From the IMG/VR virus record IMGVR_UViG_3300045241_000137: a stretch of DNA of 64,000 nt; one strand, given 5' to 3'. Shown here piece after piece: positions 13,071 through 64,000 of the stretch. The number at the start of each line of letters is the position of its first letter. The stretch's first letter is position 1. The position numbers were made by a program, and so were the translations under genes. The notes beneath the pieces are model-generated. The model was not told where the DNA came from, did no database searches, and saw nothing but the letters and a program-made list of their open reading frames with translations. The DNA comes from an uncultured virus (IMG/VR IMGVR_UViG_3300045241_000137). Lineage: Duplodnaviria > Heunggongvirae > Uroviricota > Caudoviricetes.

Positions 13071-15947
<2,877 letters not shown>

Positions 15948-35926: not shown

Positions 35927-41636
<5,710 letters not shown>

Positions 41637-59549: not shown

Positions 59550-60085
59550 GCCCGCATACAGGCGCGCGCGTGAGCGCGCCAGGAGGGATAGCCGATTACC
59601 CTGCCCGATTGCCCGCACGACGTTAGAGCTGCTTACGCGCGGCCGGTCCCGCCCGGTTTAGGATCCTGCGCGCCGATTGGCGCCGCGCGCGCGCCGGCCG
59701 TGAACGTTGACGCGCCGGCGCCGGTCCCGTTCGGGCACGCGCGCGAGCTCGTGGCACGCGCCGTGCACGGCGCCGGCGCCGCGGTTAGACGTCTAGCCGG
59801 CGCCGTGCTCGAGCGCTGCAGCAGGCGCCGCGCGCCGGCCGGCGCGCCGTGGCACGAGCATTGCCGCGGCGCGCCGCGCGCGATCGGCGAGACCTGCCCG
59901 ATGCGAGCGGCCGCAGGCATCGATAGGTCCCCGTCTATCGCTCGGCCGATCGATAGGTCCGAGCCTCATAGTTGCGACCGCAAGCAACCCGGGCGCCGGG
60001 CGCCGGGCGCCGGGCATCCTGCCGCCGGGGCACCCCTGCCGGCGCCGGAGGGTGACGTCACCTAGTGCCGGTGCTTTCGGTCCCC

Positions 60086-60871
60086 CTAGTGCTCGGGCTT
60101 TTCATCTAGTGCCGGGGCTTCTAGTGCCGGGGCTTCTGCCTCAGTCCATTCGCCGTCATCGACCAGTTCGAGCACGTCCGCCGGCACCGCTTCGATCGCA
60201 GGCCGGGCCGTCCTCGTCACCGCCGGATCGTCGAGACCGGGCGAATACTCCTGTAGGAGCTGAGCTAGTAGCCGGGCTTTCTCCATCGGCATGCGCTCCC
60301 AGTCCACGAGCGGCTGGAACCGAACGGACACGTCGACCGTCGAACGGGCGACCGGCGCGAACTGCTCCGGATCCAGCATCTTCAGCAGCGTCTTGTAATC
60401 CCCTTTGCGCCGGGCTTCTTGAATCAGCTCGTGATTAAACTCCGCGCGCGCCTGCTCCAACGCCGCCACTAGATCCGCGTGCAGGCCGCCCTTGTCGGCG
60501 TCCCTGTCCTCGCGGCCGCGCTTCTCCCAGCGCTTCGCCGTAGCCTCCACGACTCCGCACCGCCGATACGCGTCCGCCTTCGTCATCCCCTCCCGCACCA
60601 GCGAAGCAACGTCGTCGACCAGCTCGCCGGTCAGCTTGCGAGCTCGGGCACGCTCGCGCGCGAACGGAATCGTCGGCTCCGCCATGACAGCCTCTAGAAC
60701 GGCGCCGGCGTGAAGATCGATCAGACGGCAGATAGCCGTGGAGCGGGTGACACCGAGACCGCGCGACATCTCCTCGAGCGCGTCGTAGCGGTCTCGGTCG
60801 ACCGTCGCTCCGATCGTGATGTTCCTGACCCCGCGATGACGCTCGGGAGGTTTGCGCTCGACGACTGACAT
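60086..60871 (-). CDS. terS: Probable terminase small subunit (RHH-like N-terminus plus HTH)
   Basis: KLTGELVDDVASLVREGMTKADAYRRCGVVEATAKRWEKRG...LEQARAE...PEQF; acidic EAPAL-repeat tail. Confidence 0.62.
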   Translation of the reverse strand: MSVVERKPPERHRGVRNITIGATVDRDRYDALEEMSRGLGVTRSTAICRLIDLHAGAVLEAVMAEPTIPFARERARARKLTGELVDDVASLVREGMTKADAYRRCGVVEATAKRWEKRGREDRDADKGGLHADLVAALEQARAEFNHELIQEARRKGDYKTLLKMLDPEQFAPVARSTVDVSVRFQPLVDWERMPMEKARLLAQLLQEYSPGLDDPAVTRTARPAIEAVPADVLELVDDGEWTEAEAPALEAPALDEKPEH

Positions 60872-61392
60872 CTCCGTGAAGCCTACGGGAGAGTCACGAC
60901 ATCCCCGAGATACAACGGAATCGGACTATCTCGGCCGAGACGCGGCGCGCGCCTCATCCGCCAAGTCATTCTGCCGCGTTCGCGTTATCGACCGTTTCGG
61001 CACCTTTCCCGTTGTTCGTTTAGGGCGGAAAACCGTGGCATTCGCGTTAGGTAGGAGCGGGTTGCGCGAGTTGCCGCCGGCTCAACGCGGCTTCGCGCAA
61101 TCCTACCCGCGCATACCCGCCCGGTCAAGGTATTGGGGCTGGTATAGGCTTGGTTTTGGCTCTATAGCTGGGTTTGCGGGGTGTTTTCTTAACAATCAGG
61201 TGCGGTTCGGCACGAGTATATTTGGTTCGTTCGTGAGTTGCAGGGGTTTTTCGGTGTCGGCGGCGGTTCTCACATTTGCGGTAGACGATGTTGTGTCGGC
61301 TGTTCCGGACGTGTGCTGTTCTATGACTTGGTTTGTGCTCGGTGTTCCGGTGGTGTTCCGGATATTGGGCGAGATGTCTTGTTCGTTTGTGC

Positions 61393-61407
61393 GCAAGTGA
61401 CACTTGC
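61393..61407. promoter_or_regulatory. Palindromic operator-like site in the divergent intergenic region
   Basis: GCAAGTG-A-CACTTGC. Confidence 0.4.
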
Positions 61408-61679
61408 AGCACACAAGGTTTGCATTCGGCTTGGTTGACCGGCACATTCTGAGCACACTCAGCACACGCTCGGGATCGTGTTGTCGGTCTAGGCGACGGT
61501 CGTGTTTCTATATCTGGCAACGCCGGCGGGGGTTGGTTGGGCCGTAGCGTGCGTGTTGTTTATGGCTCGGCTGCGTTGCATCAGTTTTTCTTTGGTCGTC
61601 CTGATGTCTACACAAACCGCTCTTTATCTGGTATGCTGCACAGTGACGCACAAGACTTCTACCGTTAGGAGGTCGTGAG

Positions 61680-62105
61680 ATGAGTGGTACGACTGGCAGC
61701 ATCGAGGCGGCGGGCGCGCATTTGGAGGCGGCTCGCGCTGAGTTCGAGGCGTATTCGGAGGATGGGCAGATGACGTCGCTCATCGCGGACGCGTGGGATT
61801 TGACGGCCGCGGCGCTCGGGAGGATCGCGGCGCTAGAGACTGAGCAGCAGGCGGGGGTGTCGGCCGCGTCCCGTGGTCAGGTGCACGTCGTCGCGTATGA
61901 CGACGTGGTAGTCGTTCGGCTTTACGACCAGACGAGGGACAATCCGGTTGAGCTGAACGTGGCGAAGCGCGGTGATGGTCTGGTGGCGGTCGGAATGGAG
62001 GATCGCGACTCGGGCAACGTCGAGCTTTGGACGGCCGTAAATGCGGACGCGTTGCGTGCAGCGCTCGCGCTCGTGTGTGTCGGTTCCGTCTCGGTGGAGG
62101 TGTAG
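61680..62105 (+). CDS. Hypothetical early protein
   Basis: AGGAGG RBS; 141 aa. Confidence 0.7.
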   Translation: MSGTTGSIEAAGAHLEAARAEFEAYSEDGQMTSLIADAWDLTAAALGRIAALETEQQAGVSAASRGQVHVVAYDDVVVVRLYDQTRDNPVELNVAKRGDGLVAVGMEDRDSGNVELWTAVNADALRAALALVCVGSVSVEV

Positions 62106-62107
62106 CG

Positions 62108-62773
62108 ATGGAGGCTTTCGAGACGTTCGAGCATGCGGGCTTCGTGTGCGAGCTGCACTACGACGAGGCTGCTCCGTCGCCGGCCGACTGGGACCAGCTT
62201 GGGACGGTCTACCAGTTCGGCCGCGCCTGGCTGCAGGGAGCGGAGAGCGCGTCCGGAGACATCGAGGAGGCGCACGAGCGCAACCGCCCCGGGCTTGTCG
62301 TTCGGGCTTTGCGCATGGCGGGCGAGACGGCGGTGTTGTTCCAGTTTCAGGACTACGGGTCGGGCGGTTCGCGGATCCTGGCGTTGGACGACGGCGAGGA
62401 CGATCGGGCGACGGGCTATATCTCGACGACGGATGCGCGCGGCCGGGAGCTCGGGATTCCCGAGAAGGATGGGGAGGCGGAGAGGCAGTTGCGCGGCGAG
62501 CTGAAGGACTGGGACGCGTGGGTGTGCGGCGAGGTTGTCGGCTATGTGGTGCGCGAGGACGTGAAGACGTCGAACGGAGCGGACGTCGGCGAGGTCGTTC
62601 ACTCGGTTTGGGGCTTCTACCCGGAGCGGGACGTCGACGGGAGCGACGGCTACGAGTACGTTCGTCAGGAGGCGCGGGACGCGGCCGAGTCGGAGCGGGA
62701 CTCGCGGGCGGAGCGTGCCAGGGTGGCGGCGGCGGGGTGGGCGATGGCGCACGGTCAGACGGTGACGGCATGA
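62108..62773 (+). CDS. Hypothetical early protein
   Basis: MEAFETFEH...SPADWDQLGT...GEVVGYVV...SVWGFY; GGAGG RBS. Confidence 0.75.
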   Translation: MEAFETFEHAGFVCELHYDEAAPSPADWDQLGTVYQFGRAWLQGAESASGDIEEAHERNRPGLVVRALRMAGETAVLFQFQDYGSGGSRILALDDGEDDRATGYISTTDARGRELGIPEKDGEAERQLRGELKDWDAWVCGEVVGYVVREDVKTSNGADVGEVVHSVWGFYPERDVDGSDGYEYVRQEARDAAESERDSRAERARVAAAGWAMAHGQTVTA

Positions 62774-62955
62774 CCGCCGGGTGGCCTTGGATCGTGCTCA
62801 AGGAGGACCCGCACGACCAGAGCATTACCGCGCACGGGCCTTTCGTTCGGGAGGCGGACGCGTGGGAGCGGGCGCAAGCGCTCGCGGACGAGTCGGGCGA
62901 CGATGACGTGCACGAGCATTTCGTGTGCGTGCAGCTTGTGCCGGTGACAGCATGA
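62770..62955 (+). CDS. Small hypothetical protein
   Basis: MTAGWPWIVL...HGPF...; ATGA coupling. Confidence 0.6.
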   Translation: MTAGWPWIVLKEDPHDQSITAHGPFVREADAWERAQALADESGDDDVHEHFVCVQLVPVTA

Positions 62956-63224
62956 TCGTCCAGGCCCGTCTATGCACGGTCGAGGGTAAGGGGATCGGTT
63001 GGTGGCGCAACTACTTCACGGATTGCGAGGACCTGCGCGATGCGTCCTGGTTCGCGCGCGATCTTGTGCCGAAGTGTCAGGTCCGCGTGAAGGACGGGCG
63101 CGAGGTTGTGTTCGGTCCGTGTCGTGCGGAGGAGCTGCAGGCCGTCCGCGGGGACTGGCCGAACGGTTCGCGGTCGACGGTCGGCGCCACTAACGGCGCG
63201 GACGGGGGTGGGCTCGACACCTAA
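62952..63224 (+). CDS. Small hypothetical protein
   Basis: MIVQARLCTVEG...; ATGA coupling. Confidence 0.55.
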   Translation: MIVQARLCTVEGKGIGWWRNYFTDCEDLRDASWFARDLVPKCQVRVKDGREVVFGPCRAEELQAVRGDWPNGSRSTVGATNGADGGGLDT

Positions 63225-63229
63225 CCCTG

Positions 63230-63305
63230 TTTCGCGGGTGCCGTCTGATGAGACCGCGACGAAACCCCCGCCCTGGCTTTACCCCCCTCGGGCGGGGGTC
63301 ACGGC
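63230..63305 (+). ncRNA. Type I hammerhead ribozyme
   Basis: GCCGU-CUGAUGA-G-ACCGCGA-C-GAAA-CCCCCGCCC-loop-GGGCGGGGG-UC/ACGGC. All core nucleotides are present and stems I and III pair perfectly. Confidence 0.9.
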
Positions 63306-63338
63306 TAAATGTTCACTCTCTACCGTTAGGAGCGTTCG

Positions 63339-63626
63339 ATGACTACCGCAACAACGCAGGTGCTTACACAAGTGGAATGGGAAGGGGAAGACTTCGCGAA
63401 AGGCGAAGCGATCGCGCGGGCGCTCGGATATGAGCAGTTCGCCTACACGTCGACGTCCGCGCTCTGGGGCCTGTTCTGTCTGCCGGAGAATCCGCGGACG
63501 TGGCGGGGGAATCGTCAGGCTTTGCAGGGCGGTTGCATCGTGAAGACGCGCGAGCTCGGATTCCTGTTTGTGCAGGACGGCGAGGACCGCGATCCCGAAT
63601 CAGTATGGGGCGAGGTTCAGCTATGA
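63339..63626 (+). CDS. Hypothetical protein
   Basis: AGGAG RBS; 95 aa. Confidence 0.7.
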   Translation: MTTATTQVLTQVEWEGEDFAKGEAIARALGYEQFAYTSTSALWGLFCLPENPRTWRGNRQALQGGCIVKTRELGFLFVQDGEDRDPESVWGEVQL

Positions 63627-64000
63627 CTTATCGCGAGCGGAGAGAAGCCCGCGCGGAACGGTTGCGCGAGTGGGCCGAGAAGCGCGAACGGGACGCCGGC
63701 GCGGTGCTCCAGTCGCACGAGCGCTACCGAGGCGACCACGCGTTCAACTTTCAGCCGGGCCATATTCCGGAGCGCGCACGCGTGATCGCGCAGGCCGACA
63801 GGGCGTTCGAGTCGCTGGACAAGGCCGCGGGGATGGCGAGCCGCGCGGCGGGGATCGAGGCGCAGGACGCGCACGCGATCTACTCCGACGACGACGACGC
63901 GATCGAACGGCTCGAGCAGCGGATCGCGGAGCTCGAAGCGGAGCGGTCTAGGTACAAGGTTTTCAATGCGTCGTGTCGCAAGGTCGACGGCGGCGACCCT
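63623..64000 (+). CDS. DUF3560-like protein, truncated by the window end
   Basis: MTYRERRKARAERLREWAEK...QPGHIPER...AIYSDDDDAIERLEQRIAELE. Confidence 0.7.
   Translation, partial: MTYRERREARAERLREWAEKRERDAGAVLQSHERYRGDHAFNFQPGHIPERARVIAQADRAFESLDKAAGMASRAAGIEAQDAHAIYSDDDDAIERLEQRIAELEAERSRYKVFNASCRKVDGGDP

What the first reader, a model, noticed from the sequence alone, without database searches (positions are those of the whole stretch)
63230..63305. Complete hammerhead ribozyme between two early genes
Seen: stem I GCCGU (63240-44)/ACGGC (63301-05); core CUGAUGA (63245-51); a one-bp stem II G63252-C63260 closing the loop ACCGCGA; GAAA (63261-64); a 10-bp stem III ACCCCCGCCC/GGGCGGGGGU; and the cleavage triplet GUC, cutting after C63300. 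The loop CCGCGA is complementary to UCGCGG (63232-37) just 5' of stem I, giving a pseudoknot that would compensate for the minimal stem II. It fills the gap between the stop at 63224 and the RBS of the gene at 63339. Established: hammerheads occur in phage intergenic regions, but their role is largely unknown. Inference: self-processing of the early polycistronic mRNA, giving the downstream genes a 5'-OH end 38 nt before their start codon.
Basis: partly seen in the sequence, partly recalled or inferred. Interest (0 to 1): 0.8.

Follow-up and report, generated by a model that had tools for sequence, protein, structure and literature searches.

The report
Compact hammerhead ribozyme in soil phage
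A self-cutting RNA of the well-known hammerhead type sits in a short gap between two small genes of an uncultured soil phage, where it probably cuts the shared messenger RNA in two; it is a real but fairly ordinary member of a known class.

Summary
The element has the full hammerhead core: CUGAUGA, GAAA, the A15.1-U16.1 pair and C17. [quoted passage not shown] Chance does not explain this: about 7e-4 exact cores are expected in the window, and the stems and pseudoknot lower that further.

It is not a new kind. Rfam's RAGATH-1 hammerhead model (RF03152) is the top RNA-family hit in the window, at 35.6 bits. That is below the 56.3-bit gathering score.

Among 65 hammerhead-shaped relatives sharing the same stem II design, 62 have an exactly complementary upstream pentamer. 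These cover 10 different loop triplets; the control gave 16 of 650.

The window's copy belongs to a rare compact, GC-rich layout shared with three other contigs. All four score below the Rfam threshold.

A contig from a second soil study carries the ribozyme with no listed change other than one inserted T just 5' of it. It shares the leader as far as the ribosome-binding site, then continues into a different gene.

Cleavage itself, and the label "early genes", remain untested.

The parts
62925..63224 (+). Upstream ORF (99 aa from GTG 62925; alternative ATG at 62952), function unknown, stop TAA 63222-24
   Evidence: no family found; coding-like codon-position GC
63224..63239 (+). Possible 4-bp 5' hairpin ACCC/GGGU with an 8-nt loop. 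It matches the 5' hairpin of the RAGATH-1 model. Its 3' arm overlaps two of the six pseudoknot pairs.
   Evidence: cmscan alignment; minimum-free-energy fold
63232..63237 (+). 5' arm of the pseudoknot, UCGCGG
63240..63244 (+). Stem I, 5' strand GCCGU
63245..63251 (+). Catalytic core C3-A9, CUGAUGA
63252..63260 (+). One-base-pair stem II (G10.1 63252 with C11.1 63260) and the 7-nt loop ACCGCGA. The 3' arm of the pseudoknot is 63254-59.
63261..63264 (+). G12 A13 A14 and A15.1 (GAAA)
63264..63299 (+). Stem III: 10 bp (63264-73 with 63290-99) around a 16-nt loop (63274-89)
63300..63300 (+). C17; the predicted cut is between C63300 and A63301
   Evidence: Position in the hammerhead consensus; cleavage was not tested
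63301..63305 (+). Stem I, 3' strand ACGGC; this would be the 5' end of the downstream product
63306..63338 (+). Rest of the 38-nt leader. It includes the 14-mer UCUACCGUUAGGAG (63319-32) with the Shine-Dalgarno AGGAG at 63328-32.
   Evidence: conserved up to 63332 in the contig of run X2
63339..63626 (+). Downstream ORF (95 aa), function unknown; relatives at 58% identity in two IMG/VR contigs
61658..61671 (+). Second exact copy of the 14-mer TCTACCGTTAGGAG, 8 nt before the ATG (61680) of the first gene of the + strand cluster

Best explanation
This is a functional type I hammerhead self-cleaving ribozyme of the RAGATH-1 design, in a compact GC-rich layout. It is transcribed as part of a + strand polycistronic phage mRNA. 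The RNA folds into stems I (5 bp) and III (10 bp) around the conserved core. The single G-C pair of stem II is held in place by a 5-6 bp pseudoknot between its loop (CCGCGA) and UCGCGG just 5' of stem I. The 2'-OH of C63300 then attacks the adjacent phosphate. The upstream RNA is left ending in the stable stem III hairpin with a 2',3'-cyclic phosphate. The downstream RNA is left with a 5'-OH and a 38-nt leader that carries a strong ribosome-binding site. The likely result is that the two cistrons are uncoupled in stability and translation. Shown here: the sequence anatomy, the family match, the pseudoknot covariation and the intergenic position. Inferred: the cleavage itself and its effects on expression.
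For: All core positions and helices are present. RF03152 is the best RNA-family hit of the window: 35.6 bits over model positions 1-77, with E=1.4e-4 on 251 nt and E=0.035 on the whole window across 4227 families. Chance expectation is far below one. The pattern CTGATGAGACNNNGACGAAAC and its S-limited form retrieved 74 loci: 44 viral, 14 genomic and 16 metagenomic. With the window that makes 75. Of these, 65 have stems I and III in the right place, and 62 of the 65 carry an exact 5-nt complement of the stem II loop upstream. Ten loop triplets are represented and the window's CGC is unique among them. A foreign complement was found in 16 of 650 controls. The window shares a 7-nt distance from pseudoknot to core with the GC-rich L005, L062 and L071. 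It differs from them by a two-sided change in one pseudoknot pair, G:C against C:G. A 180-nt contig from a second soil study covers 63185-63332. It has one inserted T after 63227 and 4 other differences, none of them listed for the ribozyme. After 63332 it runs into a different gene. A metagenome hammerhead with a one-bp stem II cleaved at more than 1.2 per min in 0.5 mM Mg2+. It lost about 20-fold when its pseudoknot was cut from 6 to 4 bp, and compensatory changes restored activity (PMC3088659, section 7). The same paper reports hammerheads flanking genes in prophages and suggests they process long phage transcripts (passages).
Against: The score is below Rfam's gathering threshold (35.6 against 56.3), so the default scan reports nothing. 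There is no covariation within the element's own lineage: for the ribozyme the only other copy (X2) shows just one listed change, a T inserted after 63227. The nearest-neighbour minimum-free-energy fold (-38.6 kcal/mol) pairs part of the core instead. The nested hammerhead fold scores -27.0 to -32.3, before adding a pseudoknot duplex of about -9.3. The two closest relatives of the downstream gene have no ribozyme upstream. No RNA data exist for this DNA. Stem I has only 5 bp and the stem III loop (16 nt) is longer than in most family members.
Confidence: 0.78

Rival explanations
1. It is a conditional ribozyme. The 5' hairpin ACCC/GGGU (63224-39) and the full 6-bp pseudoknot compete for G63236-37. 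Cleavage would then be tuned, for example by ribosomes terminating at UAA 63222-24, or by folding kinetics.
For: Both the cmscan alignment and the minimum-free-energy fold draw the hairpin. The hairpin overlaps two pseudoknot pairs. Shortening a pseudoknot from 6 to 4 bp cost about 20-fold in a related ribozyme.
Against: Classical RAGATH-1 members have both the hairpin and the pseudoknot without conflict. The compact relatives L005, L062 and L071 match only model positions 26-77, with no hairpin. The gap from stop codon to pseudoknot is not conserved among them: 8 nt here against roughly 17-20 nt.
Confidence: 0.1
2. It is an inactive or decaying hammerhead-like sequence kept only as a structured spacer, with no catalysis.
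For: The Rfam score is below threshold. A competing fold exists. There is no lineage-specific covariation.
Against: Every invariant core position is intact. The pseudoknot partner matches a loop sequence not seen in any other member. For the ribozyme, the second soil study's contig shows no listed change other than one inserted T after 63227, while the downstream gene is replaced.
Confidence: 0.08
3. The GC-rich stem III hairpin is an intrinsic terminator or attenuator between the two genes, and the hammerhead core is incidental.
For: The hairpin has 10 bp of G-C-rich stem. The region folds better than shuffles, with z = -2.45.
Against: No U-run follows; the next bases are CACGGCUAAAUG. The terminator scan of 60000-64000 lists nothing here. 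This reading does not explain the core, stem I or the pseudoknot.
Confidence: 0.03
4. It is a chance resemblance.
For: Five or six of the 74 loci retrieved by the patterns look like chance hits in coding DNA: L053, L055, L057, L059 and L061, and possibly L056.
Against: The joint expectation is about 7e-4 x 1e-4 x 0.06. Those chance hits lack stems, whereas the window has all of them.
Confidence: 0.01

Closest known systems
RAGATH-1 hammerhead ribozyme (Rfam RF03152)
   Same: Type I topology. One-base-pair stem II (G-C) closes a 7-nt loop A-C-NNN-G-A. The loop pairs with sequence 5' of stem I. The core is identical. The window aligns to model positions 1-77. The pseudoknot follows the family's covariation rule.
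   Different: The window scores 35.6 bits against a gathering score of 56.3. The 7-nt A-rich linker between the 5' hairpin and stem I is absent. The pseudoknot arm ends 7 nt before C3, not 18 nt as in most members. GC is 65-70% against 29-48% for classical members. The stem III loop is longer. I could not read the original description: the main text of PMC5737381 does not name the motif, the supplement was unreadable, and a whole-word search for the name found 0 papers. That RAGATH stands for RNAs associated with genes associated with twister and hammerhead is recalled.
[quoted passage not shown] 2011, PMC3088659, Fig. 4 legend and section 7)
   Same: It has a single-pair stem II. A 6-bp pseudoknot links the strand leaving G10.1 with the strand entering stem I. 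Activity was shown to depend on that pseudoknot.
   Different: That RNA is type II, with stem II open and stem I closed by a loop. The window's is type I, with stem II closed and stem I open, which makes it a circular permutation of the same contacts. The permutation argument is my inference from the text; the figure itself is not held.
Hammerheads in prophage and phage intergenic regions (Perreault et al. 2011, passages)
   Same: Intergenic position between co-directional small phage genes; proposed processing of long phage transcripts into shorter mRNAs.
   Different: Those often come in clusters flanking genes. Only one ribozyme is detectable in this 64-kb window at E up to 5.
Compact GC-rich relatives L005, L062 and L071 (IMG/VR and metagenome contigs)
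   Same: Same stem II design. Same 7-nt distance from pseudoknot to core. All score 33.7-36.2 bits, below the gathering score. All lie in short gaps between small ORFs.
   Different: Their stem I 3' strand is GGGAGG, which is itself the ribosome-binding site 5-8 nt before the ATG. In the window the binding site lies 27 nt downstream of the cut, and stem I is unrelated in sequence.

Membership tests
Hammerhead ribozyme (general) | Core C3 U4 G5 A6 N7 G8 A9 | tested here: met
   CUGAUGA at 63245-51
Hammerhead ribozyme (general) | G12 A13 A14 followed by the A15.1-U16.1 pair | tested here: met
   GAA 63261-63; A63264 pairs with U63299
Hammerhead ribozyme (general) | Cleavage-site nucleotide H17 (not G) | tested here: met
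   C63300
Hammerhead ribozyme (general) | Three helices around the core, with G10.1-C11.1 closing stem II | tested here: met
   Stem I has 5 bp and stem III has 10 bp. Stem II is the single pair G63252-C63260. Single-pair stems II are documented.
Hammerhead ribozyme (general) | Tertiary contact aligning stems I and II | tested here: met
   Pseudoknot 63232-37 with 63254-59. Family covariation: 62 of 65 loci, 10 triplets, control 16 of 650. Two-sided change against the compact relatives.
Hammerhead ribozyme (general) | Mg2+-dependent site-specific self-cleavage | not testable with these tools
   No RNA run is listed for this DNA
Rfam RF03152 RAGATH-1 hammerhead | Score at or above the curated gathering score (56.3 bits) | tested here: not met
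   35.6 bits
Rfam RF03152 RAGATH-1 hammerhead | One-bp stem II closing the loop A-C-NNN-G-A | tested here: met
   GACCGCGAC aligned to the model's GACUugGAC
Rfam RF03152 RAGATH-1 hammerhead | 5' hairpin whose loop carries the pseudoknot partner | tested here: inconclusive
   ACCC/GGGU can form. Only 4 of the 6 partner bases lie in its loop, and the other 2 are in its stem.
Rfam RF03152 RAGATH-1 hammerhead | A-rich linker of about 7 nt between the 5' hairpin and stem I | tested here: not met
   A 7-position deletion in the cmscan alignment; pseudoknot-to-core distance of 7 nt against 18
Intrinsic (rho-independent) terminator | GC-rich hairpin followed directly by a U-run | tested here: not met
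   No site at 63264-63310 in the scan of 60000-64000; the tail is CACGGCUAAAUG

The most novel reading that the evidence does not exclude
The ribozyme and its 38-nt leader may form a portable unit that starts a new cistron, a natural counterpart of synthetic ribozyme insulators. Cleavage would give an internal gene a defined 5' end and the same 14-nt translation-initiation sequence (UCUACCGUUAGGAG) that precedes the first gene of the cluster. Expression of the downstream gene would then be independent of what lies upstream. The unit would move between phages as one piece: in the second soil contig, ribozyme and leader are kept up to the ribosome-binding site and a different gene follows. The compact relatives push this further by placing the ribosome-binding site inside stem I, so that cleavage would unmask it.
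Probability: 0.2. Interest if true: 0.55.

Novelty: new member of a known kind. Interest (0 to 1): 0.3.

Why it matters
This adds a GC-rich soil-phage example to a hammerhead design otherwise seen here mostly in low-GC contigs. The named records among those low-GC contigs are mostly Bacteroidota or Lachnospiraceae. It also shows that a compact layout is missed by the curated Rfam threshold: 4 of 4 such copies scored 33.7-36.2 bits. Standard annotation therefore under-counts these ribozymes in high-GC viromes. The repeated initiation sequence and the mosaic junction at the ribosome-binding site suggest what phage hammerheads may be for. That question is still open in the literature I read (PMC3088659 discussion passages). 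The phage is uncultured, so this copy alone does not make the question easier to test.

Tried and rejected
- The Rfam gathering scan of the window returned 0 hits.
- No whole genome is held for this window.
- blastn of 62900-64000 against GenBank phages gave no match.
- tblastn of ORF95 against phages gave no match.
- The best terminase hit was only 37% identical, so no close cultured relative or host could be named.
- No relatives of ORF99 were found in IMG/VR.
- Relatives of ORF95 (L045, L046) carry no ribozyme upstream.
- The protein atlas gave no usable name for ORF95.
- No RNA holder was listed for this DNA. Only assembled DNA contigs could be laid, and these cannot show RNA ends.
- The supplement of PMC5737381 could not be read.
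- 'RAGATH-1' as a whole word appears in 0 papers of the searchable library. The earlier word-start hits were for RAGATH-18.
- A second weak hit, Hammerhead_1 at 15716-15748 on the minus strand (20.4 bits, E=3.5), was rejected. It has GGAA where GAAA is required and lies inside an ORF.
- L061 shares the window's 21-mer core but has no stem I and no Rfam hit, so I treat it as chance.
- MAFFT mis-registers stem III of L062 and L071 in alignment A1. I therefore did not run pair counts on A1 and counted pairs by script instead.

Full report
**Observation**

- Stem I is GCCGU (63240-44) with ACGGC (63301-05).
- The core CUGAUGA lies at 63245-51.
- A single pair, G63252-C63260, closes the loop ACCGCGA.
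- GAAA lies at 63261-64.
- Stem III has 10 bp (63264-73 with 63290-99) around a 16-nt loop.
- The triplet GUC ends at C63300.
- UCGCGG (63232-37) is complementary to CCGCGA (63254-59).

The upstream ORF stops at 63222-24 and the next ORF starts at 63339 behind AGGAG at 63328-32. Codon-position GC is coding-like on both sides and flat in the 114-nt gap.

**Chance**

- The core pattern with up to one mismatch occurs once in the window. The mean in 100 shuffles was 0.03, and 3 of 100 shuffles had a match.
- An exact core is expected about 7e-4 times in both strands.
- Flanks drawn from the window gave a stem I of at least 5 bp and a stem III of at least 10 bp in 1e-4 of 200,000 draws.
- A 5-nt pseudoknot partner lay within 30 nt in 5.7% of draws.

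The feature is not a chance match.

**What the window is**

The window is a phage of about 66% GC.
- On the minus strand it carries small and large terminase subunits, portal, a Mu F-like head protein, a tape measure and collagen-repeat tail fibres. A DnaB-like helicase and an SbcC-like protein lie at the far left.
- The best terminase match in GenBank phages is 37% identical. No DNA match exists for the region.
- The DNA is held by a soil metagenome run.
- The small-terminase gene ends at 60871 on the minus strand. An untranslated stretch of about 800 nt follows. A cluster of small + strand genes then starts at 61680.
- The ribozyme lies between the fourth and fifth ORFs of that cluster. Neither flanking ORF has a known family.
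- The next gene has a DUF3560 domain.

The label "early" is plausible from this layout but is not shown.

**Family assignment**

- The default Rfam scan reports nothing.
- With an E-value threshold, the RAGATH-1 hammerhead model RF03152 aligns to 63223-63305 over its full length. The score is 35.6 bits against a gathering score of 56.3, with E=1.4e-4 on 251 nt.
- On the whole window it is the best of only four hits at E up to 5, with E=0.035.
- The model's consensus has the same unusual stem II: one G-C pair closing A-C-NNN-G-A.
- The alignment also draws a 5' hairpin, ACCC/GGGU at 63224-39. It deletes the model's 7-nt A-rich linker.

**Relatives and the pseudoknot**

The pattern CTGATGAGACNNNGACGAAAC found 44 loci in IMG/VR and 14 in species genomes. 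A version limited to G or C in the three middle positions found 16 in JGI metagenomes.
- With the window that makes 75 sequences. A simple parser found stem I (at least 3 bp) and stem III (at least 4 bp) in the right register in 65 of them.
- Of the 10 that failed, L033, L034, L075 and L076 still carry the pseudoknot partner. L076 is cut off just after the core. L033 gave an RF03152 hit of 54.2 bits.
- The other six (L053, L055, L057, L059, L060, L061) look like chance or broken copies. About as many chance hits are expected for 18 fixed bases in collections of this size.
- Of the 65, 62 carry an exact complement of the five central loop bases within 60 nt upstream. Ten different loop triplets each have their own partner.
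- Complements of other loci's loops were found in 16 of 650 control trials.
- The three without a partner are L056 (probably chance), L065 (only 8 nt of upstream sequence held) and L069.

The window's triplet, CGC, occurs in no other true member, and its partner is present. The window therefore obeys the family's pairing rule with its own sequence.

**Layout**

The distance from the pseudoknot arm to C3 falls into classes.
- It is 18 nt in most members.
- It is 15, 17, 19 or 21 nt in some.
- It is 51-53 nt where an extra hairpin is inserted.
- It is 7 nt in four cases: the window, L005, L062 and L071.

These four are all GC-rich (58-65%). All score 33.7-36.2 bits, and the other three match only model positions 26-77. 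They form a compact layout that the curated threshold misses.

Against the other three, the window shows a two-sided change in one pseudoknot pair, G:C instead of C:G. Its stems I and III are wholly different but still paired.

In the other three, the 3' strand of stem I is GGGAGG, followed by ATG after 5-8 nt. There the ribosome-binding site is part of the ribozyme. In the window it lies 27 nt downstream of the cut.

**A second copy in nature**

A 180-nt contig of a soil run from another study covers 63185-63332, with 4 other letters and one inserted T after 63227.
- No difference is listed inside 63228-63305. Differences more than about 30 nt from a contig end are listed for the neighbouring contig, so the ribozyme appears to carry no other change.
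- After 63332, the last base of AGGAG, the contig continues with unrelated sequence that opens a different reading frame.
- This is an assembled contig at a depth of about 3. It is weak evidence and it gives no covariation.
- It does show the ribozyme and leader kept as one unit next to a different downstream gene.

**Published support for the mechanism**

I read these parts of Perreault et al. 2011 (PMC3088659): passages and section 7.
- Stem II can be as short as one pair.
- About 40% of hammerheads probably use a pseudoknot between stems I and II.
- A metagenome hammerhead with a one-pair stem II cleaves at more than 1.2 per min in 0.5 mM Mg2+.
- Trimming its pseudoknot from 6 to 4 bp costs about 20-fold, and compensatory changes restore activity.
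- Hammerheads often flank genes in prophages, which suggests processing of long phage transcripts.

That tested RNA is type II. The window's is type I with the same contacts, so by my reading it is a circular permutation.

**Mechanism proposed**

- Shown: the anatomy, the family match, the covariation and the position.
- Inferred: folding during transcription, and attack of the 2'-OH of C63300.
- Inferred: an upstream product that ends in the 10-bp stem III hairpin with a cyclic phosphate.
- Inferred: a downstream product with a 5'-OH and a 38-nt leader.
- From general knowledge of bacterial mRNA decay (recalled, not tested), a 3' hairpin slows 3' exonucleases. A 5'-OH end is handled differently from a 5' monophosphate by RNase E or RNase J.
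- The two halves would then decay and be translated independently. The direction of that effect depends on the host, which is unknown.

**Points against**

- The score is below threshold.
- The copy in X2 shows no listed change in the ribozyme other than the inserted T, so the element's own lineage gives no covariation.
- The nearest-neighbour optimum (-38.6 kcal/mol) pairs part of the core. The nested hammerhead fold scores -27.0 to -32.3, before a pseudoknot duplex of about -9.3.
- Relatives of the downstream gene at 58% identity have a TTGACA-like sequence upstream and no ribozyme.
- No RNA data exist.

**Rivals**

- A terminator is unlikely. No U-run follows, and the scan lists none here.
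- A dead relic is unlikely, because every invariant base and a private pseudoknot partner are intact.
- A conditional ribozyme remains open. In that reading the 5' hairpin and the full pseudoknot compete for G63236-37.

**Leader repeat**

The 14-mer TCTACCGTTAGGAG occurs exactly twice in the window.
- One copy lies at 63319-32, before the gene downstream of the ribozyme.
- The other lies at 61658-71, before the first gene of the cluster.
- The X2 contig diverges right after this 14-mer.

This suggests, without proving, that the ribozyme gives an internal gene the same start region as the first gene.

**Verdict**

This is a real hammerhead, very probably active, of a design already catalogued (RAGATH-1) and experimentally understood in a permuted form. 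It is a new, divergent, GC-rich member in a rare compact layout. Interest is modest.

Noticed in passing
window 61658-61671 and 63319-63332: An exact 14-nt repeat, TCTACCGTTAGGAG, holds the ribosome-binding site of both the first gene of the + strand cluster (ATG 61680) and the gene after the ribozyme (ATG 63339). There are no other copies with fewer than 2 mismatches in the window.
   Followed up: partly
L005 122-187 (-), L062 385-455, L071 385-455: Three compact GC-rich hammerheads have GGGAGG as the 3' strand of stem I, followed by ATG after 8, 6 and 5 nt. Cleavage would leave the ribosome-binding site at the very 5' end of the product.
   Followed up: partly
L004 125-201 (-) and 250-313 (-): A RAGATH-1 hammerhead (58.1 bits) and a type-P1 twister match (57.5 bits, below its gathering score of 67.2) lie about 50 nt apart on one IMG/VR contig.
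   Followed up: no
L009, L013, L015, L017, L024, L034, L036, L040, L042, L044: In these family members the pseudoknot partner lies 51-53 nt before the core. An extra AT-rich hairpin-like insert sits between the partner and stem I.
   Followed up: no
window 60872-61679: About 800 nt lack a convincing ORF between the minus-strand small-terminase gene and the + strand gene cluster. Only one weak promoter-like site (minus strand, 61128-61100) and three overlapping weak terminator-like sites (61479-61502) are found. By eye, TACACA-N17-TATGCT at 61609-37 could be a weak promoter for the cluster, but it did not pass the scan.
   Followed up: partly
window 15716-15748 (-): A weak Hammerhead_1 match (20.4 bits, E=3.5) lies inside an ORF and has GGAA in place of GAAA. 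I judge it a chance match.
   Followed up: yes
L045 1-120, L046 1380-1500: The two IMG/VR relatives of the 95-aa downstream protein (58% identity) have a TTGACA-containing AT-richer spacer upstream and no ribozyme.
   Followed up: partly
window 36444-41498 (-) and 13071-14894 (-): Two large collagen-repeat proteins (1684 and 607 aa) match tail-fibre families.
   Followed up: no
L061 401-421 (-): A GC-rich metagenome contig holds the same 21-nt core string as the window. It has no stem I and no Rfam match, so it is probably a chance match in coding DNA.
   Followed up: yes
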